Assembly (NCBI RefSeq): GCF_004010195.1
Contig: NC_057719.1
Coordinates: forward strand, 22,762,193 to 22,826,192
From: Chiloscyllium plagiosum
Lineage: Eukaryota
DNA: 64,000 nucleotides
Direction: 5' to 3'
Of this stretch, positions 9,840 to 23,777 are shown one piece after another. The number at the start of each line of letters is the position of its first letter. Position 1 is the first letter of the stretch. The notes under the pieces are model-generated. The model was not told the origin of the DNA, searched no databases, and saw only the letters and a list, made by a program, of their open reading frames with translations. The position numbers were made by a program, and so were the translations under genes.

Positions 9840-11952
9840 GCTTTACTAACTCTATCTACATGTTCACTGATGACTCCACAATTGTAGGCCAAATTTCAAT
9901 CAATGACAAGTCAGAATATAGGAACGAGATAGCAAGCTTGGTGGCATGGTGTAAAGATAACACTCTCTCCCTTAAAATCAGCAAAACAAAAGAACTGGCC
10001 ATTGACTTCAAGAAGCAAGGTAGAGGACACACCCCTAGCTACATCAATGGAACTGAGGTGGAGATAGTTGAAAGCGTCAACTTCCCAGGAGTAATGATCA
10101 CCACCAATCTGCCCTGGTCCACCCACATTGATGTGACAATCAAGAAAACACAACAATACCTCTACTTCCTCAAGACGCTAAGGAAATTCGGTATAACCAG
10201 AAAGACTCTGACCAATTTTTATAGATGTACATAGAAAACATTCTATTGGATGAAACACAGCTTACTACGGCAACTGTTCTGCCCAGGACAATAAGAAACT
10301 ACAGAGAGTTGTGAACACAGCCCAGTCCATCTTCAAGCCAACTTTCCATCCACTGACTCCATCTATACTTTGCACTGCCTCAGAAAGGCAGCCATGTCTT
10401 ATAAAAATGGTCTGTTGTGTGGTGCACCATGTTTGTAAAAAATTTCCAAGGGAATGTGCTCCATAACTAATTTCTGCCATCCCAGCAAGCCCGGCCAGTT
10501 CTCAGACATCCAATTCATCAGAATATTCTTCCGTGCACTGTATGCAAGAATATTAAATAGTTTCTTCCCATGCCCGTCTAAAGATGGTAAATTCGGTAGA
10601 CCTAAGAGGAGAGATATCGAGTTTACTTTGACTTCAGTCCTCAAAACCCTCCCTATTTCTCCTGTGGCATGTCCAGAAGCAATGGGTAAGAGTACCTACA
10701 CTTATTTTACATTTGGGGCACACTGAAGATGCCCCTTTTTTAAACTTCACCAGACGGTCCGGTGCCAGATGAAACTGTGCAGAACTTTTAACTGCGGAGC
10801 ACATGTCCTATTACAGATTGAGGTCTTACGAGCATTCTCCCATATGTTCTCCCATGTTTCAGAAGAGATCTCCACTCCTAGCTCTTGCTCCCGGGCCTCA
10901 CATAACTGGTTAATATCCTGCCAGGCCCTGCCACCCAGCAGATGATAGAGGGCACTAACAGAAAGGGTGCTTGTGGAAAGTAGCAACAACCTCTCTGTAT
11001 TGGGCTTATAGGGCTTAGTGAGAAGCATAGTCCTCTTCTGAATGAAATCCCTAACCTGAAAAAAATGGAACAAATCTCTGCTGGGCAGCCTATATTTGCG
11101 GCTCAGTTGCTCAAAAGACATCATAACCACCCCCTCAAACAACTCTCTCAAACTAGAAATTCGTCTCATGGCAGCACTTGAGTTATTTGGATATAGATTG
11201 GTCAGTTATCTTAACTAGGCTGTTTGTTTAACCAGGATGGTTCGGTTTCTCAAGCCCTGGGCCCTGGAGAGTGTCTCCTGAGTTAATACGGGTATATATA
11301 CAATGCTCCCGTTCCTTTGTTTGGGAACTTTGCGCCGAGCATAGCTGTTCTGTATTGTGTGTTTTCTTTTGTTTTTTTTTAATTTTCTTTCTTTTTTTTG
11401 ATCTATTAGTTATTTACTTATTTATTGGGGTTGCTTTGCACAGTGCTAGGGTTTGTTTTGTTTTATGGGTTAGGTTAGTAGTTAGTAGGCAGTAGTTGTA
11501 TTGTAATTTGTGTTTTTTTTTTCTTTTTATTACACTGATATTTGTTATTGATTGTACTTTTTAATAATTTTATATGTTTGTAAAGTTTTACAAAATGCTA
11601 ATAAATATATTTACAAAAAAAAACACAGGCAGCCAACATCATCAAAGACCCTTCCCACCCCGATTATGATCTGTCCCTACCCCTTCTGCTGTGTAGAAGA
11701 CAAAAAAGCTTAAAGATACATACTAACATATTCAAGAATAGCTTCTTCCCTGCTGTTATTAGACTTCTGAATGGACCTCACAAATTTCAAATTTAAAGCT
11801 GTCCTTGTTCCTTGTGGACCTTCACAGCTGTAACATTGTATTCTTTGCGTTGTTCTGTTACCCTTATGCAGTTTGTATGTTCTGCCTGTACTGCACACAA
11901 AACCAAACTATACCGAGGAACATGTGACAATAATAAATCAAATCCAATCAAA
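9840..11952 (+). mobile_element. Rex1/Babar-clade LINE 3' part, split by an L1 insertion (10395-11626)
   Basis: SIYMFTDDSTIVGQI..NDKSEYRNEI..LVAWCKDNTLSL..SKTKEL.IDFKK and KKTQQYLYFL..LRKFG. It resumes at 11627 (IIKDPSHP...NSFFPAVIRLLN) and ends in an aatcaaatccaatcaaa tail. Confidence 0.85.
10395..11626 (+). mobile_element. 5'-truncated, 5'-inverted L1/Tx1-clade LINE with poly(A) tail and TSD
   Basis: 10395-11169 (minus) encodes the ORF2 C-terminus including the CCHC knuckle CPKCKISVGTLTHCFWTC. 11168-11623 (plus) carries the ORF end, a T-rich 3' UTR, AATAAA (11600-11605) and an A-tail. Flanked by aggcagcca at 10386-10394 and 11627-11635. Confidence 0.9.
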
Positions 11953-11989
11953 CAAGGTCAATTTCAGAATTCCCAGTTTGTTGGCTCCA

Positions 11990-13660
11990 GCTGCCTTCTC
12001 TTTACCATGGATATTCAATTCCTTTACATGTTCATCCCCCATTAGGATGGTGTCAGATCTCACCACTCCTTCCTGGAAAACAGGAGGCCTGAATTGTCCC
12101 CATCTACCAACGCCCTCCTCCACCTGGCTGAGCTAGTCTTCACTCTGAACAACTCTTTTAACTCCTCGCATTTTCTTCAGGTCAGTGGAGTGGCCATGGG
12201 TACCCATATGGGCACCAGTTATGCCTGTCTCTTTTTTGAGAATGTGGAACATTTCTTGTTCCAGTCATAATCCAGCACCCTCCCACAACTCTTTCTCCAG
12301 TATATCATTGATATTATCAGTGCTGCTTCCGTCTCTCATCCCAAATTGGAAAAGTTCATCAATTTTGATTCCTAATCCCACCCTGCTCTCATCTTCACCT
12401 GGTCAATCTCTGACTCCTCCCTTCCCTTCCTTGACATTTCTGTTTCCATTTCTACGGATAGACTGGCCACCACTATAAACCTGGTAAAAACAATGACTGC
12501 AGATGCTGGAAACCAGATTCTGGATCAGTAGTGCTGGAAGAGCACAGCAATTCAGGCAGCATACGAGGACAGGCAAAATCGACGTTTCGGGCAAAAGCCC
12601 TTTATCATAAACCTACTATAAACCTACTAACTCCTACGGTTACGTCGATTACACATCCTCACAACCTGCTTCCTGTAAAACTCTATTCCATTCTCCTAGT
12701 TCCTCCATCCCCATTGCATCTGTTTTGATGATGCAAAGGGGCCTCGAAAATGTCCACCTTCTTCCTCAACCAAGAAATCCCCAGCACCGTAATTGAGAGG
12801 ACCTTCAGCCAGTCCAACCCATTTCCTGCACTTCGGCTCTCATGCTCTTTCCTCTCTCCCATAACAGCAATAGGGTCTCCCTTGTCCTCACCTACCATCC
12901 CACCAGCATCTACATCTGGAGGATCATTTCCACCACCTCCAGCAGGATGCCACCACCAGACACATATTGCCCTCCCCTCCCTGTTCCCACCTGGTGCACT
13001 CCTCCTTCGCTCCCAACAACCTCCCACAACCCCACAGCATTTTTCCCTGCAACGACAAAAGGTGTAAAATCTGCTTGTTTACTTTCTCTCTCCTTAGTGT
13101 CCAAGAGCCCAATCATACCTTCCAGGTGAAACAGCACTTCACTCAATGTAGTCTACTGTATTTACTGCTCACAATGCTATACTCTGAGGAATCAAAGCAT
13201 AGCCTGAGTGACAGCTTCACAGAACACCGATGTTCTGTTAGCAAAAAAGAATCTGAGCTTCCAGTATGCCTCCCACTCTAACACCCCATCCTGTTCCCTG
13301 GCCAACATCTCTGTCTTAGGCTTGCTACAGTATTCCAGCAAAACTCAGTGCAAGTTAGAAGAACAACACCTTATTTTCCACTTGGGAACTGTACCCTCTT
13401 GTGGATTTAATATCGAGTTCAATAATTTTAGGCACCTTCTCATGTGTCCTTAGCCCATACCTCACAGATCAGACCTTGTTATCATGTAGTCTGCTATTAC
13501 ACACAATTCATTGTTATCCACTAATCATCCCCATTCGTTGCTATTAATTCTCCTAGGCTGGACACTTTATCTGTCCGTCTTTCATTTGACTGTATCTCCA
13601 CCTATCATTCACTCCCTTCTATCCTATTTTCTGTATAAAAAATAACATTTTCCTAGCTAC
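11990..13660 (+). mobile_element. Penelope-like element RT + GIY-YIG region, degraded
   Basis: FTMDIQ.LY, GVAMGTHM..SYACL, KLEEQHLIFHLGT motifs across frameshifts. Homologous to 21140-22510. Confidence 0.88.
12483..12614 (-). mobile_element. Short PLE pseudo-LTR insertion with 11-bp TSD
   Basis: ctgcagatgctgga...gtgctggaagagcacagc...gacgtttcgggcaaaagccc, flanked by actataaacct at 12472-12482 and 12615-12625. Confidence 0.8.
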
Positions 13661-13667
13661 TATTTTT

Positions 13668-14182
13668 ATAGAGTCATAGAAAGCACTGAAACAGACCTTT
13701 CAGTCCAACTCGACCAAGCTGACCAAGTTTCCCAAACTAAGCTAGGCCTGTTTGCCTGCGTTTGATCCGTAACTTTCTAAACCTTTCTTATTCATATACC
13801 AGTCCAAGTGTATTTAAAAGTGTCAGTTATTTTTTTTTTAAATGTACCTGCATCTGTCACTTCTTCTAGCAGTTTATTCCAAATACGTACCACCCTCTAT
13901 GTGAAAATGTTACCCAGGAGATCCTTTTTAAATCTTTCTCCCGCCCCCCCCTTAAAACTGTGCCCTTTTGTTTTGAACTTAACCCTCGGGAAAAGACCTT
14001 TGCCATTCGCCTTATCTATGCCCCTCATGATTTTATAATCCTCTGTAAGGTCGCCCCTCAACCTCCTGTGGTCCATGGAAAAGTGTACCAGCTTATCCAG
14101 GCTCTCCTAATGACTCAAACCCTCCATTCCAGGTATAATCTTCCCATGGCAGGGGGACCAGAACTGAATGCAGTATTTCAAA
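13668..14182 (-). mobile_element. CR1 3' end
   Basis: tagagtcatag tail, ccctcatgattttata.. and aggtcgcccctcaacct motifs as in the other HER1-like copies. Confidence 0.85.
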
Positions 14183-14189
14183 AATCGAG

Positions 14190-14365
14190 AAAGATGGTGT
14201 GTGGTGAGTTTAACCTGAGTGTCACCACACCTCAGATGATCTCAAGGTTAGAAAAGTGGAATCTACATGGTCACCTCAATCAGTGTGAGAATTGACTGAT
14301 AGTCAATTAGTCACTGTTAGTCTCCCTCTGCTTCACAAGCCAGCTGGCCAACTACTGAGCTAACT
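14190..14365 (-). mobile_element. SINE family 'C' fragment
   Basis: tttaacctgagtgtcaccacacctcag...catggtcacctca is homologous to 3400-3490 and 43780-43880. Confidence 0.6.
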
Positions 14366-14827
14366 AGCCCTCTTTCACTTTCATGCTGGTCAAACAAACA
14401 ATACTTTGAACTGACCCTTCCATGGAAGAGAGCCATTTTATTGAAACAGAGTGAGATGAAAGCAGAGTATGTATGCTTTTAGAAATTTAGTTCAGAGTAG
14501 GAATTTGGTGCAAATGGGGACAGAAATTCTTTCACTAAGGTTTACTGCAAGAAGTAAACTTTCCAGGGAAGAGGCGGGTGGGAAAGGATAGAGGCATGAC
14601 ATAGGAGCTGGGGTATTCACTGGTGAATATTTCCAGCTTTTTAATTAAAAGATCTTCATAGTACTTAGGTTTCCAGTGTCTCTTTTCTTTAAAAAAATCA
14701 TTTAAGTCTAAAGATTGATACTTGTTTTTTTTACTTTAAATATTATTAGAACAAAATGTTGAAGTAAAACATAAAGGGCAGGAAATCTCAAATTATTAAT
14801 TTATAAATTAAATCAAATATGATATTG

Positions 14828-15420
14828 ATGGCTAGACAGGGGAAATGTTGCTACTGCAACATGTGGAAGTTGCTGGACACTAATGTGATACAGAGTGAAA
14901 ATGTTTGCAGCTTGAGGAATTTAGGACTCAGATGAGGAGCTGAAATCTGAGCAGCAGATACTGTGCCACATCAAGAAACAAGAAAGTTACCTAAGACTGT
15001 GGTCACAGGTAAAATGGTTTGACTGCAGGTGAGGCAGGTATGATGATCCAGAGGGTTGCAAATGAGAAATCTCAGCCCCTGCAATTTTCTCATAGTTACG
15101 GAGGTTCTTGTAAGCTGAAGGGAAGACAGTGAGGACTACAGGGCTGATGACTGAACTGGTGATGGCACATTAGTACAGGAACCCATTCAAATGGTGGTTG
15201 GAACTAAGAAAGTAATTGTGGCAAGGGACAGTTTAATTAGGGGGTTAGATACTGTACTCTATAGCAGGAACCCAATGGTGGTGGTGCCAGGATTAAGAAC
15301 ATCTCCTCAAGCTGACAAATAACTTGGAATGGGAGTGACAGAATGTCATTCTTGTTAGTACCAATGACATTGATAGTAGAAAGGAAGTTCCACTGAAAGA
15401 TTTTGAACAATTAGAAGCTA
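14828..15420 (+). mobile_element. Degraded CR1 ORF1 (zinc finger/coiled coil + SGNH esterase)
   Basis: tgctactgcaacatgtgg (CxxC.W), aaatgtttgcagcttgagga (KCLQLEE), gggacagtttaattagggg (GDS-like) and gtaccaatgacatt (GTND-like), in the same order as 47082-48150. Confidence 0.65.
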
Positions 15421-16149
15421 CAATTCTATCACTCTCAATCATCTCCCTATTTCCCTGTCCTTTACTCATACGTCACATTAGTCCCCTCACACACCTCGCT
15501 CCCTAATCCCACACTTACCACACATATTTATCTTTTCACAAGAGGTGTTAAAGTGGCTGGCTGTGTTTCAGGACATTTCTATAACAGAACATAGTGCATT
15601 GGCAGCTACAAAAGAAGGCAAGGTGTCTTCGTTGCTGGATTCCTGCAATGGGCATAAATAGAGGCACCTATTTGGGAATCTCCAGTGCAGGAGAACGATA
15701 ATAGTAAGTGGATAATTTTTAATCCTTTTAGGGTCAGAAATTGGTACAATCAGGGTTACACTTTCTGAAGAATTGGGGAGCAGGAAACACTCTGGAACTA
15801 ATTATTGTGAGAAGTTGTATTAAGAACCCAACAGCAGCAGAAACGTTAAATAGTTCCTAACTTATTGCAAGCCATACTTTTTTTAAATGTAAAAGTAATT
15901 GGAAGATTCTTTTTGTTTTAATCAAAAGACACAGGCTTATAAAACAAGACTTTCTAAGACTTAGTTTGCATTTTCGCACAATGGTTAACAAACATCAAGT
16001 CAAAATGGAATTCCAAAAATGTCATGGTCTTCCGTCTCAAGTTATTTCACTTTTTACACATTTTTTTATGTCACTCACGACCAGGCAAGTTTTGTACTGC
16101 TTATTAAATTGTGCAATCACATCTCTGTTGCAACTGTATAAAGATTGGA

Positions 16150-16545
16150 AGTGCTGAGAAATTCAGCAGATCTGGCAGGGTCTGTGGAAACAGAAACAAC
16201 GTTAACATTTTGTGTTCCATGATTCTTCTCCAGAACCTTCTGGATGCTGCCAGAATTATTGATTTCCTTCAGCACTTTCCACTTATATTTCACATCTCCA
16301 GCATCCTCTGTATTTTTATTTTCATCTCTTTGGCAGTGATTGCTCTGCATAACAGTGTTCTGAAAGAAAAAGAATTAATTTAGAGTCTGTGCCAACCACC
16401 TCTCCAAAAACAACAAAAACTAAAGAACTGCAATGACTCAGAAATGAGAACAAAAATAGCTGGAAAAACTCAACAGGTCTGGCAGCATCTGTGGAGAGAG
16501 AAAACAGAGTAAATATTTTGGATCCAGGGACTCTTCTTCAGAAAC
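16150..16545. mobile_element. Two PLE pseudo-LTR-derived short elements, the first quasi-palindromic
   Basis: gctgagaaattcagcagatctggcag...ctgccagaattattgatttccttcagc (inverted arms), and aaatagctggaaaaactcaacaggtctggcagcatctgtggagaga..cagagt..ctcttcttcag. Related copies at 22822-22935 and 51442-51568. Confidence 0.6.
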
Positions 16546-16656
16546 CTCCAAAAGCACAATGTGTTGGGTTTAATGGATTTAAGATTTGTAAGGGAATCCA
16601 ATTCTGCTCCAGATTTAACAGCTATTTGGCTTTCAATTGAATTGAGGTGGGATTAG

Positions 16657-16985
16657 GAGAAAGTGAGGACTGCAGATGCTGGAGATCAGAGTGAAAAGTG
16701 TCGTGCTGGAAAGCCACAACAGATCAGGCAGCATCTGAGGAGCAGGAGAATCGATATTTGAGGCATAAGCCCTTCATCAGGAATGAGGCTTGTGAGCCAG
16801 AGGGCTGAGAGATAAATGAGAGGAGGGTGGGGCTAGGGGGGAAAGGTAGCTGGGAAATCTGAATGTAGTCTGGAGTCCATGCGGGATCAGTTGGTTCCGT
16901 AGGCAGGCACTGAGGAAGGAGATGTGGCTGTGGTAGCGAGTCTGCTTCAGGACGTGGCTGCAGAGTTTCAGGGCAGAGAGGACTC
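16657..16985 (-). mobile_element. Internally deleted (non-autonomous) PLE: ORF N-terminus fused to 3' pseudo-LTR
   Basis: SALKLCSHVLKQTRYHSHISFLSACLRNQLIPHGLQTTF matches 19735-19853. It is followed directly by the pLTR (ttcCTGATGAagggcttatgcc...cagcatctgcagtcctcacttt). Confidence 0.85.
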
Positions 16986-17097
16986 TGAATGTATCAAAGC
17001 TCAGCAATAGGACATCCCACTTCAAAGGCTGGCAGATCTTCAGTATTTGCTGTGTCACTGGGAGTAATGACCCCATCGGTACTTCAGTGAGGCCTGT

Positions 17098-17404
17098 ATT
17101 AGATTACTTTACAGTGTGGAAACAGGCCCTTCGGCCCAACAAGTCCACACCGCCCCGTCGAAGCGCAAACCACCCATACCCCTACATTTACCCCTTACCT
17201 AACACTACGGGCAATTTAGCATGGCCAATTCACCTGACCTGCACATCTTTAGACTGTGGGAGGAAACCGGAGCACCCGGAGGAAACCCACGCAGACACGG
17301 GGAGAATGTGCAAACTCCACACAGTCAGTCGCCTGAGATGGGAATTGAACTCGGGTCTCTGGCGCTGTGAGGCAGCAGTGCTAACCACTGTGCCACCCTG
17401 CCGT
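17098..17404 (-). mobile_element. HE1-type V-SINE, young, full length
   Basis: Head, V-domain (gtgtggagtttgcacattctccccgtgtctgcgtgggtttcctccgggtgctccggtttcctcccacag on the minus strand) and taatctaa tail. Confidence 0.95.
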
Positions 17405-17869
17405 CCACAGCTGATTGCAGCTGTATTGTAGCTGGGCCTGGGGATCTCATCAGAGGCCAGGTTGGCAGGAGAATGGATGGCTGGGTTAGGAAGGCCAAGT
17501 CGTAGAGAAACCTGATTAGATTTGCTTCACATTGTGGAGCCTCACAAATGAGCCTAAGGGATCTGCTAAGGATGGATGATCTCCTGCCTGTCTTCAGATT
17601 GTGTAAGGAGATTTATTGACTGTTTGCTTGTCAAGAGGTGGACTCGTAAGTGGACATGAACTGACTAGTTAATGGCTTCAAATTGTCCAGAAATAGATAG
17701 GTCACTCAGTGTTCCTGCTCATCATTGAATTTAATATGCAGCTTATCTTTAATCCCAACAGCAGTTGTATTTATCCAATTTGATTTTGTTTCCTTTTCAA
17801 TCATAATCAAACTAATTAAGCAGAAGAGAAAAACTATTTTATGTTATGTCAACCATAGTTTATCTTATA

Positions 17870-18215
17870 TCACTCTCACTTTTGACTAAATAGGTTATGA
17901 GAGTCACAATCCAGTGACTTAAGTACAAAGGTCTATCCTGTCACTCTTGCAGTACTAAGGGAGTCTTTCATTGCCATAGCTAACTTATTTTGGAAGATGC
18001 ATTTCTGGTAACTCAGGAGATTTAAAGCTCCCACAGCTCTGTATTGTTACAATGACAGATTATCTGTTCATTATCACATTTTAGTTCATGAGAGCTTTCT
18101 ATGTGCAGATTGGTGCTGCACTTCCTGCATTACAACATGTTCAAAAAAAGATAATTAATTGGCTGTAAGCACTTCGGAAGGTTCTCAGATTGGGAAGGCC
18201 TTACATAAATGTAAT
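17870..18215 (+). mobile_element. Deu-domain SINE, old
   Basis: acagattatctgttcattatcacatt...gtgcagattgg...ttcctgcattacaaca...attggctgtaagcactt...ataaatgtaa. Homologous to 5250-5680. Confidence 0.65.
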
Positions 18216-18479
18216 TACTGCCTGCAGGTATTAAATGAAAATATGTGAGGCAATTATCAAACTGGCCACAAAACACAACTCTGAACAGTGAACCTGATGA
18301 ATGGAAATATATTGGATGATAGGTAATTTGCCAAGCTAAAGGGAACCTGAAGAATTAAAACCTGAGAGACAAGATATAAAGAATTTATATCTTTCACATG
18401 AGACCACCTCAGAGGCCAAGCACATTTTTAAAGCAATGATTAACAATTTATGATCATTGTAGTAAAGCGAACCTCCCAG

Positions 18480-19630
18480 GAGTGATGTAAAGTGGATGCT
18501 GCTAAAGATAACAATGCATGGCATTAGAAGCAATGTACCAGCATAGATAGAGGATTGGTTAATTAACAAGAAGCAAAGTGTGGGGAGAAATGAGTGCTTT
18601 TCTGGTTGGCAATCAATGACTAATGGTGTGCCTCAGGGATGAGTGTTAGGACCGCTGTTGCTCACAACTTGCTCAGATGGTTTCGAGTTGGGGACCACGT
18701 ATAGTGTGTCAAAGTTTGCGGATGATACTAAGACGAATGATAGAACAGAGTGTGCCGAGGACTGTGAAACTTTGCAAAGGAACGTAGATAGTTTAAGTGA
18801 GTGGGCATATGTCTGGCAGATGGAGTACAATGTTAATAAATGCAAAGTCATCCATTTTGGTGGGAATAACAGAAAAAAAGGACTATTACTTGAATGGTAA
18901 AAGAATTGCACCATCCTGCTGTGCCGAGGAACCTGGGTGTCCTTGTGCATAAATCACAAAAGGTTGATCTGCAGGTAAAACAGTAATTAAGAAGGCAAAT
19001 AAAATTTTGTTCTTCAATGCTAAAGGGATTGAGTTTAAAAGCAGGAAGGTTATGTTGCAGCTGTATAGGGTGCTGGTGGGGCCATACCTGGAGTATTGCA
19101 TGCAATTTTAGTCTCCTAACTTGAGAAAGGATGTACTGACACTGCAGGGGGCGCAGAGGAAGTTCACTAGGTTGATTTTTCAAGTTGAGGGAGTTGGCTG
19201 ATGAGAACAGACTGAGTAGACAGGGATTGTATTCATTGGAATTTAGAATAATGAGGGGGCATGTTACAGAAACATATATAATTATGCAGAGAATAGGTAA
19301 GATAGAAGTAGAGAGGATGTTTCCAATTGGAGGGTGAAACTAGGACAAGAGGGCATAGCCTCAAAGTAATGGGGAGTAGATTTTGGACTGAATGGAGAAG
19401 GAAGTTCTTCACCCTGAGGGGTGTGAATCTGTGGAATTCCCTGCCCAGTGAAGTAATTGAGGATTCCTCAGTAAATGCTTTTAAAGCTAAGGTAGATCAT
19501 TGTTTGAGCAGTAAAGGAATTAAGGGTTATGGTGAGAGGGTGGGTAAGTGGAGCTGAGGCCACAAAATGATCAGCCATGATCTTATTGAATGGCAGAGCA
19601 GGCTTGATGGGTCAGATGGCCTACTCCTGC
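18480..19630 (+). mobile_element. CR1 LINE RT to 3' end (second subfamily); terminal tail resumes at 22797-22818
   Basis: GVPQG.VLGPLL, SKFADDTK, WQMEYNVNKCKVIHFG, TRGHSLKV..SRF.TE.RRKFFT.R.VNLWNSLP, GIKGYGERVGKWS*. Confidence 0.92.
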
Positions 19631-21950
19631 AAGGAACCCTCTAGCAAGGATGCCTACCTTGAAGAAGTTCTCCTCCTCTCTCCACAAGAATCTCAGTGAG
19701 TCTCTCTCTCTCACTGCAACCCAGAGGTTATCTCCTCTGCCATGTAGCTCATCAACCATGTACTGAAACAGACTCGCTACCACAATCACATTTGCTTCCT
19801 CAGTGTCTGCCTCCATAACCAACTTATCCCGCATGGACTACGGACTACATTCAGCCCAGCGCAGTTTGGATCCGAACAGGACAACCAGTACAGACTGCAG
19901 ATTCAAAGCCACCAGAAACAGGTCTCCTTCCGGATCCTCCTCTCCACGCTCGCAGCAATGCGCCAGCACCTAACCTCTCTACAGTCAGCCCTGCCTCAGC
20001 TGAGGGCCACACTCTCTCAGAACTGCAAAGGACCCACTCTGTACTATATTCTAAGAAGAATTCATAGTCTCAACAAACACTATTTCAACACCATCTCAAA
20101 CATCAAAAACTGTAAGTACAACAAACTTTTACACACCCACCTCCATAACCAGCGCTCCTCAACCATTCCAGAAGATTACCCGGCCTCTGGAACTGCTTGG
20201 AAGCCATTAGCCATATGGCTGGTACAGCTACCATCCTCACGGTGATCGATGACATCACTTCCGCCCCTATTATGGCCACTTCCACGGTCCCTTCCGCCCC
20301 TCACAATTCCTCATGCACCACATGTGACATCACTTCCGCACCCCACATCATCGCTGACGTAACGCGTTCAGCGACTTCCGCCCCCTCTACTGCTGTGTTC
20401 ACCACCACTTCCGCCCCCACCAATGCCACTCACCTGCATTCTGCTGACACGCTCCCCCACAGACCCCACTGTCACCATCCTCNNNNNNNNNNNNNNNNNN
20501 NNNNNNNNNNNNNNNNNNNNNNNNNNNNNNNNNNNNNNNNNNNNNNNNNNNNNNNNNNNNNNNNNNNNNNNNNNNNNNNNNNNNNNNNNNNNNNNNNNNN
20601 NNNNNNNNNNNNNNNNNNNNNNNNNNNNNNNNNNNNNNNNNNNNNNNNNNNNNNNNNNNNNNNNNNNNNNNNNNNNNNNNNNNNNNNNNNNNNNNNNNNN
20701 NNNNNNNNNNNNNNNNNNNNNNNNNNNNNNNNNNNNNNNNNNNNNNNNNNNNNNNNNNNNNNNNNNNNNNNNNNNNNNNNNNNNNNNNNNNNNNNNNNNN
20801 NNNNNNNNNNNNNNNNNNNNNNNNNNNNNNNNNNNNNNNNNNNNNNNNNNNNNNNNNNNNNNNNNNNNNNNNNNNNNNNNNNNNNNNNNNNNNNNNNNNN
20901 NNNNNNNNNNNNNNNNNNNNNNNNNNNNNNNNNNNNNNNNNNNNNNNNNNNNNNNNNNNNNNNNNNNNNNNNNNNNNNNNNNNNNNNNNNNNNNNNNNNN
21001 NNNNNNNNNNNNNNNNNNNNNNNNNNNNNNNNNNNNNNNNNCCCCCAGTCCAGGAACTCCCCACATACGTTCGAGACATCACCCATGCCCTCCACCTCCT
21101 CCAAGACTTCCGTTTCCCCGGCTCCCATGGCCTCATCTTCACCATGGATATCCAATCCCTCTACACCTCCATCCGCCATGACCAGGGCCTAGAAGCCCTC
21201 AATTTCTTCCTCTCCCGATGTCCCCAACAGTACCCTCCCACTGACACTCTAATTCGTTTGGCTGAACTGGTACTCACCCTTCACAATTTCTCCTTCCAAT
21301 CCTCCCACTTCCTCCAGACCAAAGGGCTAGCCATGAGCACCTGTATGGGCCCCAGCTATGCCTGTCTCTTTGTTGGCTGTGTAGAACAGTCCATCTTCCA
21401 TAATTACACTGGCACGACTCCCCACCTCTTCCTCCGTTACATTGATGACTGTATCGGCGCCACCTCGTGCTCCCGCGAGGAAGTTGAGCAGTTCATCAAC
21501 TTCACCAACACATTCCACCCTGACCTTAAATTCACCTGGACCATCTCTGACACCTCTCTCCCTTTGCTGGACCTCTCCATCTCTCCATTAATGACGACCA
21601 AGTTGACACTGACATTTTTTACAAACCCAGTGACTCCCACAGCTACCTGGATTACAACTCTTCCCACCCCACCTCCTGCAAAAATGCCATCCCGTATTCC
21701 CAATTCCTCCGCCCCCACTGTACCTGCTCCCAGAAGGACCAGTTCTATCACAGAACACACCAGATGTCCTCCTTCTTTAGAGACCTCAATTTCCCTTCTC
21801 ATGTGGTTGAAGATGCCCTCCAACACATCTCATCCACATCCCACACCTCCGCCATCAAACCCCACCCCTTCAACCGTAACAAGGGCAGAACCCCCTTTGT
21901 CCTCACTTTCCACCCTACCAAACTTTGCATTAACCATACCATCCGCCGAC

Positions 21951-22030
21951 ATTTCTGCTACTTCCAAACGGACCCCACCACCAGGGATATATTTCTGCCA
22001 CTTCCAAACAGACCCCACCACCAGGGATAT
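21951..22030 (+). repeat. 40-bp tandem duplication inside the PLE ORF
   Basis: atttctgctacttccaaacggaccccaccaccagggatat followed by atttctgccacttccaaacagaccccaccaccagggatat (2 mismatches). Confidence 0.95.
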
Positions 22031-22510
22031 ATTTCTCTCCCCACCCCATCCGCTTTCCACAAAGACTGTTCATTCCGTGACTACCTGGTCAGGTCCACAC
22101 CCTCCAACATATCACCCTCCCATCCTGGCACCCTCCCCTGCCACCACAGGAATTGCAAACTTGTGCCCTCACCTTCCCCCTCACCTTTATCCAAGGCCCC
22201 AAAGGAGCCTTCCACATCCATTAAAGTTTCACCTGCACATCCATAATGTCATTTATTATATCCGTTGCTCCCGATGTGATCTCCTCTACATTGGGGAGAC
22301 TGGACACCTCCTTGCAGAGCGCTTCAGGGAACATCTCTGTGACACCTGCACCAATCAACCCCACTGCCCTGTGGCCCAATATTTCAACTCCCACTCCCAC
22401 TCAGCAAAGGACATGCAGGTCCTGGGCCTTCTCCACCGCCGCTGCCTCACCATCCGACGCCTGGAGGAAGAACACTTCATCTTCCGCCTCGGAACACTTC
22501 AGCCCTAGGG

Positions 22511-22645
22511 CTGATTGTGCTGGCCATGAAAGAAACTCGAATATCAGAAGAGGAAGCTCAGAAGAAAATATTGATGTTTGACAAATATGGCTTACTTTAT
22601 CATGGTCGATCACAGCCAACTGACAAGCACCAACAACCATATGCC
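22511..22645 (+). pseudogene. ME2: Fragment of NAD-dependent mitochondrial malic enzyme coding sequence inserted in the PLE
   Basis: Translates [45 protein letters not shown]. This closely matches the recalled vertebrate ME2 segment [44 protein letters not shown]. The segment is absent from the PLE paralog at 1741-2006. Confidence 0.85.
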
Positions 22646-23393
22646 CAGTTTCCTCATTTCCCCTCCCTCCACCTTACCTCAGTTCCAACCTTCCATCTCA
22701 GCACTGTCCTCATGACCTGTCTTGACCTGCTGTGCTTTTCCAGCACCACTCTGATCTAAACTCTGGTTTCAAGCATCTGCAGTCCTCACTTTTGCCTGGC
22801 CTACTTCTTATGTTCTTAGGAGATATCACTGACCTAAAACATTAACTATGTTTCTTTATCCACAGAAGCTGCCTGACCAGCTGCCTAGTATCTCCAGTAT
22901 TTTCTGTTTTAATTTCAGATTTTCAGCATCTTTAATAGTTTTTCCTTCGTGTTGCCCATTAGAAATGGTCTGGAAGAAAAACACCAAAAGTAGCACGTAA
23001 TTCTTTGTTAACCTTCTGGTAAAATCGCTCCCAATTCCCAAACTCAATCATTGCAGAGAGAATTAGACAGGGTAATGGATTTTCTAAAACCTCTGCAGTA
23101 TTACCTGCTGGCTAAAGCATAGAATTCTACACCTTTATACAGCATCACTAAATGTCTCATTGAGAAAGTCTGACTGCTTTTGATTTTACTTACTGGATAA
23201 TCCAGTAGGGAATTGTCAACAACTATGAAATACAAACATCAAGGTATACTTTCTTCCTACAATCTGAATATGTTGCCCTTTGGCCAATATCTTACCCGGC
23301 CTGGCCAAGCTTCTTTATCTACTTTGGTGATATCCTGCTCCATTACCCCTCTCTCCATCACCATCGCTATTGTCATTTCAGAAGTGGTATACT

Positions 23394-23777
23394 ATAGAAT
23401 CCCCACAGTGCTCAACAGGCCATTTGACCCAACAAGTCCACACTGACGATCCAAAGAATATCCCACCCAGACCCATCCCTACATCCCTACGTTTTGCATG
23501 AATAATGCACGTCACCTACACACCTCTGAACACTATAGGCAACTTAGCATAGCCAATCCACATCACCTGCACATCTTTGAAGTGTGGGAAGAGACCAGAG
23601 CACGCAGAGAAAACCCACTCAGACATGAGGGGAATGTGCAAACTCCACACAGAGAGTCTCCCAAGGTTGGAATTGAACCTGGGTTGCTGGCACTGTGAGG
23701 TAGCAGTGATACCCACTGAGCCATCGTGTCACCACTCACCGAGCCATCATGCAGCCACCCACTGAGCCACCGTGTCG
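23394..23777 (-). mobile_element. HE1-type V-SINE with reiterated 5' head
   Basis: V-domain and tail present. The ccactgagccaccgtg-like motif occurs three times in 23712-23777. Confidence 0.88.

What the first reader, a model, noticed from the sequence alone, without database searches (positions are those of the whole stretch)
22500..22660. Host metabolic-gene (ME2) mRNA-like fragment patched into a Penelope element, replacing ~18 nt
Seen: the intact PLE paralog (rc of 1741-1860) reads cttcaaccccaagg-catcatgtggatttca-ccagtttcctcatttcccc. Here the middle ~16-19 nt are gone and ~135 nt of unrelated sequence sit between cttcagccctaggg and ccagtttcctcatttcccc, with no poly(A), TSD or splice signals. 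Established knowledge (recalled): the insert translates to [45 protein letters not shown], the [17 protein letters not shown] segment of mitochondrial malic enzyme ME2. Inference: I recall an intron in vertebrate malic enzyme genes just before the GR. If so, the insert is spliced cDNA captured either by a double template switch of the PLE RT or as an RNA-templated break-repair patch. It is in the same sense as the PLE ORF but out of frame with it, and carries likely decay changes (W to L, G to R).
Basis: partly seen in the sequence, partly recalled or inferred. Interest (0 to 1): 0.8.

Follow-up and report, generated by a model that had tools for sequence, protein, structure and literature searches.

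The report
Spliced ME2 fragment inside shark Penelope
A 133-base piece of the spliced message of a shark's malic enzyme gene (ME2) sits inside one dead Penelope-type jumping gene in place of 16 bases, likely copied in by a reverse transcriptase that switched templates; it is a one-off fossil with no predicted function.

Summary
Window 22512-22644 (133 nt) replaces 16 nt at the endonuclease end of a decayed, near full-length Penelope-like element (PLE, ~19631-22797, + strand). It is ME2: 40 of 45 residues match Chiloscyllium ME2. It is mRNA-derived. A 3,758-nt contig from a probable RNA run matches 22512-22647 in one ungapped piece, while contigs from three runs taken as genomic DNA break at 22603/22604. 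The insert is in the PLE's sense, out of frame, blunt on the left, with a 3-nt CCA microhomology on the right and no poly(A), duplication or splice signal. Depth over it is single-copy, so no amplified family is seen. Its divergence (4-5 of 133) is compatible with the PLE's own (~5%). No public contig bridged the junctions, so they rest on the assembly alone. The mechanism is not settled: a double template switch by the PLE's reverse transcriptase (0.5) only narrowly beats a later mRNA-templated break patch (0.38). Both kinds are known from other elements. My searches found no case of a spliced mRNA inside a PLE body. It is a clean but functionless fossil.

The parts
19631..22797 (+). Decayed, near full-length endonuclease-positive Penelope-like element (contains assembly gap 20483-21041), sitting in the 3' tail of an older LINE (CR1-type by recalled tail motif)
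   Evidence: RT and GIY-YIG hits; 3' end at 22796/22797, where 100-217 contigs per run go on into unrelated flanks (table 7); the 5' limit is read by eye from the LINE tail
21144..21581 (+). PLE reverse transcriptase core (with YIDD motif)
   Evidence: Pfam RVT_1 E 4.9e-5, 23.6 bits, below its 29.6 cut-off; 123 of 146 residues identical to shark PLE protein P0008
22236..22511 (+). PLE GIY-YIG endonuclease, cut off by a TAG at 22506-22508 and by the insert
   Evidence: Pfam GIY-YIG 24.6 bits, cut-off 22.6; ORF list; P0008 80% identical
22512..22603 (+). ME2 insert, 3' part of the upstream exon (codons L322-Q352)
   Evidence: Contigs of 921, 680 and 657 nt in three runs match only 22512-22602, inside the contig, with 2, 2 and 3 differences at single-copy depth (table 8)
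22604..22644 (+). ME2 insert, 5' part of the next exon (G353-V366); exon junction at 22603|22604, uncertain by 1 nt
   Evidence: A second contig per DNA run starts 10 letters before 22613; 22603 has zero DNA depth; RNA contig runs through unbroken (tables 2, 3, 8)
22645..22647 (+). CCA microhomology shared by ME2 mRNA and the resuming PLE
   Evidence: RNA contig aligns to 22647; PLE contigs start at 22645
22645..22797 (+). PLE 3' part: ORF end (stop 22713-22715) and 3' repeat, with an internal deletion at 22721|22723
   Evidence: Frames; loose ends behind 22721 and before 22723 in all runs (table 7)

Best explanation
The insert is 133 bases of spliced ME2 mRNA that replace 16 bases near the end of one Penelope-like element's reading frame, and it was likely copied in when the element's own reverse transcriptase switched onto the mRNA and back during this copy's insertion. 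Shown: the ME2 identity, the missing intron, the same sense, the limits, the CCA overlap on the right, the blunt left joint, single-copy depth. Inferred: copying the element RNA from 3' to 5', the enzyme stopped at 22645; the new DNA end paired with ME2 mRNA through CCA; it copied 133 nt across the exon junction, then rejoined the element RNA 16 nt beyond where it had left, without homology. The product lost the end of its endonuclease and reads into stops, so it would be dead in cis, and it has decayed since.
For: Exon junction spanned. The insert lies inside a PLE and in its sense: PLE-like DNA is about 8% of the window, so a random patch would land so about 4% of the time. The microhomology is at the mRNA-3' junction, where synthesis onto the mRNA must start. 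Ages are compatible: insert 4-5 of 133 (95% interval 0.8-8.6%); PLE 4 private changes in about 88 evaluable nt (from, table 3; Fisher p 0.74) and about 80% amino-acid identity to a paralog, which a simulation puts near 5% per copy. Double switches are documented for LINEs (PMC2104539) and, with element-mRNA-element structure, for LTR elements (PMC5131818). A purified PLE enzyme starts on RNA not homologous to the cut DNA (PMC11167929).
Against: Only 16 nt are lost, so the element looks nearly continuous. Tan et al. treat an interrupted continuous element as not the template-switch pattern. Size, small deletion, one-sided 3-nt microhomology and no poly(A) or duplication all match break patches. 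A 3-nt overlap at one of two junctions has about 0.10 chance probability. The age match is weak: the interval also allows a much younger insert, and 4 of the 5 differences are G to C/T on the mRNA strand with at most one transition; if these arose during capture, the insert would be younger than the PLE. I found no paper showing template switching by a PLE enzyme. No contig bridges the junctions (contigs show presence only).
Confidence: 0.5

Rival explanations
1. Later mRNA-templated repair of a germline double-strand break in the already inserted PLE. A broken end lost 16 nt, paired with ME2 mRNA (or a cDNA scrap of it) through CCA, a cellular or retroelement reverse transcriptase copied 133 nt, and the other end was joined bluntly. 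The break might have been made by a PLE endonuclease working in trans near the end of the reading frame.
For: Junction anatomy matches class 2 templated insertions: microdeletion, microhomology, no duplication or poly(A); experimental sizes 73-414 bp, median 191 (PMC5110952). It also matches spliced-mRNA capture at CRISPR breaks in mouse zygotes, including a 3-bp microhomology and a single-microhomology class (PMC4516963). The element resumes only 16 nt away. The anole PLE protein cuts both strands of a target made from its ORF-pLTR junction in vitro.
Against: It needs chance for both the place (about 8% PLE) and the sense (one half). The insert is not detectably younger than the PLE.
Confidence: 0.38
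2. DNA-templated patch copied from an existing ME2 processed pseudogene elsewhere in the genome, so that no RNA was involved at this site.
For: It would give the same intron-less sequence, and some of the 4-5 differences could have been inherited from a decayed donor.
Against: In three runs taken as DNA, position 22603 has zero depth and bin 22600-22619 is fully explained by the two exon contigs, so no intron-less ME2 contig was seen (84, 85 and 62% of each run read; contigs cannot prove absence).
Confidence: 0.05
3. Assembly or library artefact, such as a chimeric cDNA-derived read built into the scaffold.
For: The assembly is gapped (4 N gaps in the window). No contig in the 4 runs bridges either junction. 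The G to C/T bias could be read damage.
Against: The insert differs from ME2 at residues invariant in 124 of 124 sequences, which contaminating cDNA would not. The nearest gap is 1.47 kb away. Both flanks are colinear parts of one PLE copy. The tool states that contigs drop rare variants; by my recall of graph simplification, a short single-copy path between very deep repeat nodes is the kind that is removed.
Confidence: 0.05

Closest known systems
LTR-mediated retrocopies by double template switch (Tan et al. 2016, PMC5131818; passages read)
   Same: Element-mRNA fragment-element structure, spliced partial mRNA, no poly(A) or L1 hallmarks, short similarity at a junction.
   Different: The carrier here is a Penelope-like element without LTRs. 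Only 16 nt are replaced, the overlap is 3 nt on one side (their median is 6), and there is no sign of further spread.
Class 2 templated sequence insertions and RT-product-mediated break repair (Onozawa and Aplan 2016, PMC5110952, parts 1-2 of 4 read; Ono et al. 2015, PMC4516963, passages read)
   Same: Size, small deletion at the site, one-sided microhomology, no duplication, no poly(A), spliced mRNA as template.
   Different: Here the target is itself a retroelement with its own reverse transcriptase and the insert is in its sense, which a patch does not require. The case is an old germline fossil in a shark.
Tripartite LINE chimeras (Gogvadze et al. 2007, PMC2104539; abstract, background and passages read) and mRNA-L1 chimeras (bioRxiv 2025.02.02.635956; passages read)
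   Same: Co-oriented RNA copies joined in one insertion, ascribed to template switches of a non-LTR enzyme.
   Different: Those join different RNAs in series, or put the foreign RNA at the 5' end. Here the sequence returns to the same element almost where it left. A clean target duplication, their key proof, is not established here.
Penelope-mediated mobilisation of host genes in Adineta vaga (Arkhipova et al. 2013, PMC3846280; passages read)
   Same: Host gene sequence associated with a Penelope element.
   Different: There whole intron-containing genes lie between terminal repeats. Here a short intron-less fragment lies inside the coding body.

Membership tests
ME2 mRNA-derived sequence (retrocopy fragment) | Homology to ME2 rather than ME1/ME3 | tested here: met
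   PDB ME2 E 2.6e-10 against ME1/ME3-type chains at 0.002 or worse; 40 of 45 residues with Chiloscyllium ME2
ME2 mRNA-derived sequence (retrocopy fragment) | Loss of an intron present in the gene | tested here: met
   One ungapped RNA-type contig 22512-22647; contigs of three DNA-type runs break at 22602/22604. Run kinds are the tool's guesses; X9 is unlabelled and behaves like DNA.
Classical L1-type processed pseudogene / class 1 TSIP | Poly(A) tail and target-site duplication around the insert | tested here: not met
   Neither is present; 16 nt are lost instead
Canonical EN+ Penelope-like element (host) | RT followed by C-terminal GIY-YIG endonuclease | tested here: met
   RVT_1 E 4.9e-5 (below cut-off) then GIY-YIG above cut-off; colinear with P0008
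Canonical EN+ Penelope-like element (host) | [quoted passage not shown] | tested here: met
   CxxC lies between the two core motifs. Which histidines complete the motif is my reading by eye; one candidate H of P0008 reads Y in this decayed copy.
Canonical EN+ Penelope-like element (host) | Pseudo-LTR or partial tandem, with hammerhead | tested here: inconclusive
   No second copy of the 3' end at the 5' end. The 3' repeat is deleted at 22721|22723 where a paralog at ~12.6 kb carries a degenerate hammerhead-like core. No Rfam hammerhead hit in 11900-23500.
Neptune clade of PLEs | CX2-5CxxC motif in the RT-EN linker; placement in an RT tree | tested here: inconclusive
   A C-x4-C-x2-C motif is intact in P0008 and split by a frameshift in the window. 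Nematis shares the motif. No tree was built.
Double-template-switch chimera | All parts in the same transcriptional sense | tested here: met
   PLE ORF and ME2 both on +
Double-template-switch chimera | One integration event: target duplication round the whole unit and no insert-free orthologous copy | tested here: inconclusive
   Possible 11-nt repeat 19618-19628 / 22798-22808 with one mismatch, which may instead be the LINE tail continuing. Orthologous copies could not be resolved in contigs.
Double-template-switch chimera | Junction similarity beyond chance | tested here: not met
   3 nt on one side, none on the other; chance about 0.10
Class 2 templated sequence insertion | Microdeletion and microhomology, no duplication, no poly(A), distant donor | tested here: met
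   16-nt loss, CCA overlap; no other ME2 exon in the window
Class 2 templated sequence insertion | A pre-insertion allele exists (same locus, no insert) | not testable with these tools
   No genome is held for this window and contigs fragment inside the repeat
Amplified cargo-carrying PLE subfamily | Many copies with the same junctions | tested here: not met
   Depth over 22520-22539 equals the single ME2 exon contig (13.2, 12.1, 8.11) against about 1e5 to 5e6 on the PLE flanks; no look-alike among earlier windows. A few copies cannot be excluded.

The most novel reading that the evidence does not exclude
This is an in vivo record of a Penelope-like reverse transcriptase leaving its own sense RNA, copying a spliced host mRNA and returning to the same RNA. 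PLEs, known for keeping introns, would then also make intron-less internal retrocopies, and shark genomes rich in PLEs would hold many such sense-biased mRNA scraps. The G to C/T bias might record copying of a damaged mRNA fragment.
Probability: 0.45. Interest if true: 0.58.

Novelty: new variant of a known kind. Interest (0 to 1): 0.38.

Why it matters
The PLE replication cycle is poorly known. Arkhipova et al. 2013 left open whether the template is sense or antisense RNA, and the one in vitro system shows initiation without homology. A spliced mRNA piece in PLE sense, if made during insertion, would be natural evidence for a sense RNA template and for template jumping by this enzyme, and it suggests a simple genome-wide orientation test. 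If it is a later patch, it is one more germline example of mRNA-templated break repair, here in a shark. Either way the locus itself codes for nothing: the insert reads into stops in the PLE frame and the ME2 frame has no start of its own and two changes at invariant residues.

Tried and rejected
No genome is held for the window, so no copy count in the assembly was possible. The run search listed 24 runs, none holding half of the 57 sampled words (best 0.46) and no RNA holder on record; 4 of the 24 were laid. No listed piece spans the stretch or either junction. This is not used as evidence of absence. Small extra depth at about 22540-22587 in the DNA runs carries the window's T at 22572; most of it fits ~19-nt chance matches, one run (X7) may hold a longer piece, and it could not be resolved, so it is not used. 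Trans-splicing or exon capture with splice sites was rejected: the insert starts and ends inside exons by the contigs, and neither joint has GT/AG on the needed side. In-frame fusion was rejected: the net change is +117 nt, but the PLE frame meets TAG at 22506 and three stops in the insert. The idea that Q at ME2 position 356 is an ancestral state dating the insert was weakened: most outgroup sharks and rays have E, only Stegostoma and Rhincodon among the 15 cartilaginous fishes shown have Q. Folding of three paralog stretches gave nothing above shuffles (z -0.22, 0.55, -1.08). A 4-way DNA alignment was poor for two of the paralogs and is not relied on. My note of a 24-nt deletion before the GIY-YIG core was wrong; it is a 1-nt frameshift, and three residues were double-counted (337 of 422 instead of 340 of 425). 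The paper search for ME2 gene structure returned only plant papers. Literature searches listed no report of a spliced mRNA fragment inside a PLE body, judged from listings and abstract starts plus passages of four PLE papers; subscription papers and all supplements (for example the junction tables of Tan et al.) were not seen.

Full report
Observation. The paralog at 1738-2006 on the minus strand aligns to 22307-22511 and to 22645-22713 and lacks what lies between. The stretch between is A-rich (41% GC against 59% and 50% in the flanks). They hit human ME2 in the PDB at E 2.6e-10, with other malic enzymes at E 0.002 or worse, and Pfam Malic_M above its cut-off. The best relatives are carpet-shark ME2 proteins: 40 of 45 identical to two Chiloscyllium species, 39 to Hemiscyllium, 38 to Stegostoma and Rhincodon, 26-31 to other cartilaginous fishes. 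The host is therefore most likely a bamboo or epaulette shark (inference). No other ME2 exon lies in the window.

The host element. The insert lies in a decayed, near full-length Penelope-like element on the plus strand, about 19631-22797. It has an RT core (RVT_1 E 4.9e-5, below cut-off) followed by a GIY-YIG domain (above cut-off) and is colinear with a predicted shark PLE protein at about 80% identity. Its 3' end is fixed at 22796/22797 by 100-217 contigs per run that run on into unrelated flanks. It interrupts the tail of an older LINE; an 11-nt flanking repeat with one mismatch may be a target duplication or the LINE tail continuing. A linker cysteine motif suggests Neptune or Nematis type; no tree was built.

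mRNA origin. No genome is held, so I laid contigs of four public runs from related animals on 22400-22980 at 87% likeness (4 of 24 listed runs). A 3,758-nt contig of a probable RNA run matches 22512-22647 in one piece with 5 differences and no gaps, on the plus strand. Its offset would leave about 160 nt of leader before the start codon, as expected of a full mRNA (my arithmetic). In each of the other three runs (two guessed DNA, one unlabelled) a contig of 657-921 nt matches only 22512-22602, in its interior, at single-copy depth. A second contig begins 10 letters before 22613. Position 22603 has no depth in any of the three. The gene therefore has an intron at 22603|22604, uncertain by one base because 22603 is mutated. 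That the human gene has a phase-0 intron at the same place is recalled, not checked (one search found nothing). The insert lacks the intron, so it comes from spliced RNA.

Junctions. Other PLE copies continue after 22511 with 16 nt and then rejoin at 22645 (tables 5 and 7). The ME2 match starts at 22512, so the left joint is blunt. On the right, ME2 matches to 22647 and the PLE starts at 22645, so CCA is shared; 22644 differs from the PLE and, by inference from the protein and the count of differences, from ME2. There is no poly(A), duplication or splice signal. The insert is one base out of frame with the PLE ORF, which already stops at 22506-22508 and meets three more stops in the insert.

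Copy number and reality. Depth over 22520-22539 equals the ME2 exon contig alone (13.2, 12.1, 8.11) while the PLE flanks reach 1e5 to 5e6, so no amplified chimeric family is seen. No contig bridges a junction. The tool warns that contigs drop rare variants, only 62-85% of each DNA run was read, and none of the runs is shown to be the window's own animal, so this is no evidence of absence. It does leave the junctions resting on the assembly. Against an artefact: two differences hit residues invariant in 124 of 124 ME2 sequences, and the nearest gap is 1.47 kb away.

Age. Three differences are listed directly (22572, 22603, 22613). Two more (22538, 22644) are inferred from the proteins and the per-contig counts. 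That is 4-5 of 133 (interval 0.8-8.6%). The PLE copy has 4 private changes in about 88 evaluable bases, by my reading of table 3 (Fisher p 0.74), and its identity to the paralog fits about 5% per copy in a simple simulation that also absorbs subfamily difference. A 40-nt tandem duplication in the same copy differs at 2 positions. The ages are compatible, but a younger insert is not excluded. All five changes are non-synonymous (chance 0.30). Four are G to C or T on the mRNA strand (post hoc p 0.0003 for that strand, 0.003 for both strands, 0.09 for transversions alone). This is unexplained. If it records copying of damaged RNA, the insert would be younger than it looks.

Mechanism. Both serious models start the same way: a DNA 3' end inside the PLE sequence pairs with ME2 mRNA at CCA and is extended for 133 nt, then is joined without homology 16 nt further along the PLE. 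They differ in what that end was. In the switch model it was the growing cDNA of this insertion. That explains the place and the sense, which a random patch would meet about 4% of the time, and it has precedents in LINE and LTR elements. In the patch model it was a broken chromosome end in a resident copy. That explains the very short deletion and matches published patches in size and junction form. These two arguments roughly cancel. I put the switch at 0.5 and the patch at 0.38, with 0.05 each for a retrocopy donor and an artefact. Unchecked earlier notes on this genome report several PLE insertions holding nearby host DNA or an R2 fragment, and one exon patch in an old PLE. They are leads, not support, and they point both ways.

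Comparison and novelty. It works like an LTR-type internal retrocopy or a class 2 templated insertion. It is not a classical processed pseudogene and not an amplified cargo family. Papers seen: PMC2104539 (abstract, background, passages), PMC5110952 (parts 1-2 of 4), PMC11167929 (parts 1-2 of 4), and passages only of PMC5131818, PMC4516963, PMC8557442, PMC3846280, PMC4209133, PMC8857657, bioRxiv 2025.02.02.635956 and 2024.08.27.596794; no supplements. Searches listed no spliced mRNA fragment inside a PLE body. The library lacks most subscription papers, so that blank is limited.

Verdict. A real-looking, well-defined, single, functionless fossil of host mRNA copied into a Penelope-like element. 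The mechanism stays nearly even between two known kinds. Interest 0.38; 0.58 if capture by the PLE enzyme is shown.

Noticed in passing
window 22721-22723: A second break in the same PLE copy, 75 nt after the insert: part of the 3' repeat is deleted, including the stretch where a paralog has a hammerhead-like core; the two sides share a short imperfect repeat (loose ends).
   Followed up: partly
window 21953-22033: A 40-nt tandem duplication inside the PLE, the copies differing at 2 positions.
   Followed up: partly
window 22538, 22572, 22603, 22613: Four of the five differences from ME2 are G to C or G to T on the mRNA strand, an odd spectrum for neutral decay. Unexplained.
   Followed up: partly
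window 12478-12617: In an older PLE copy (11993-13300, +), an inverted piece of a PLE 3' end with a degenerate hammerhead-like core interrupts the RT region; a short stretch appears on both sides of it.
   Followed up: no
window 16660-16978 (-): A short PLE derivative in which a 5' ORF piece is joined directly to the 3' end.
   Followed up: no
window 19618-19630 and 22798-22820: The PLE is nested in the 3' tail of an older LINE (about 18400-19630), with a possible 11-nt duplication; a contig of run X7 spans 22772-22909, so this 3' junction exists in that animal too.
   Followed up: partly
window 22884-22886: All three DNA-type runs have a contig lacking 3 nt here, and X7 has a second contig with extra letters, so this flank varies or is duplicated among relatives (table 4).
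   Followed up: no
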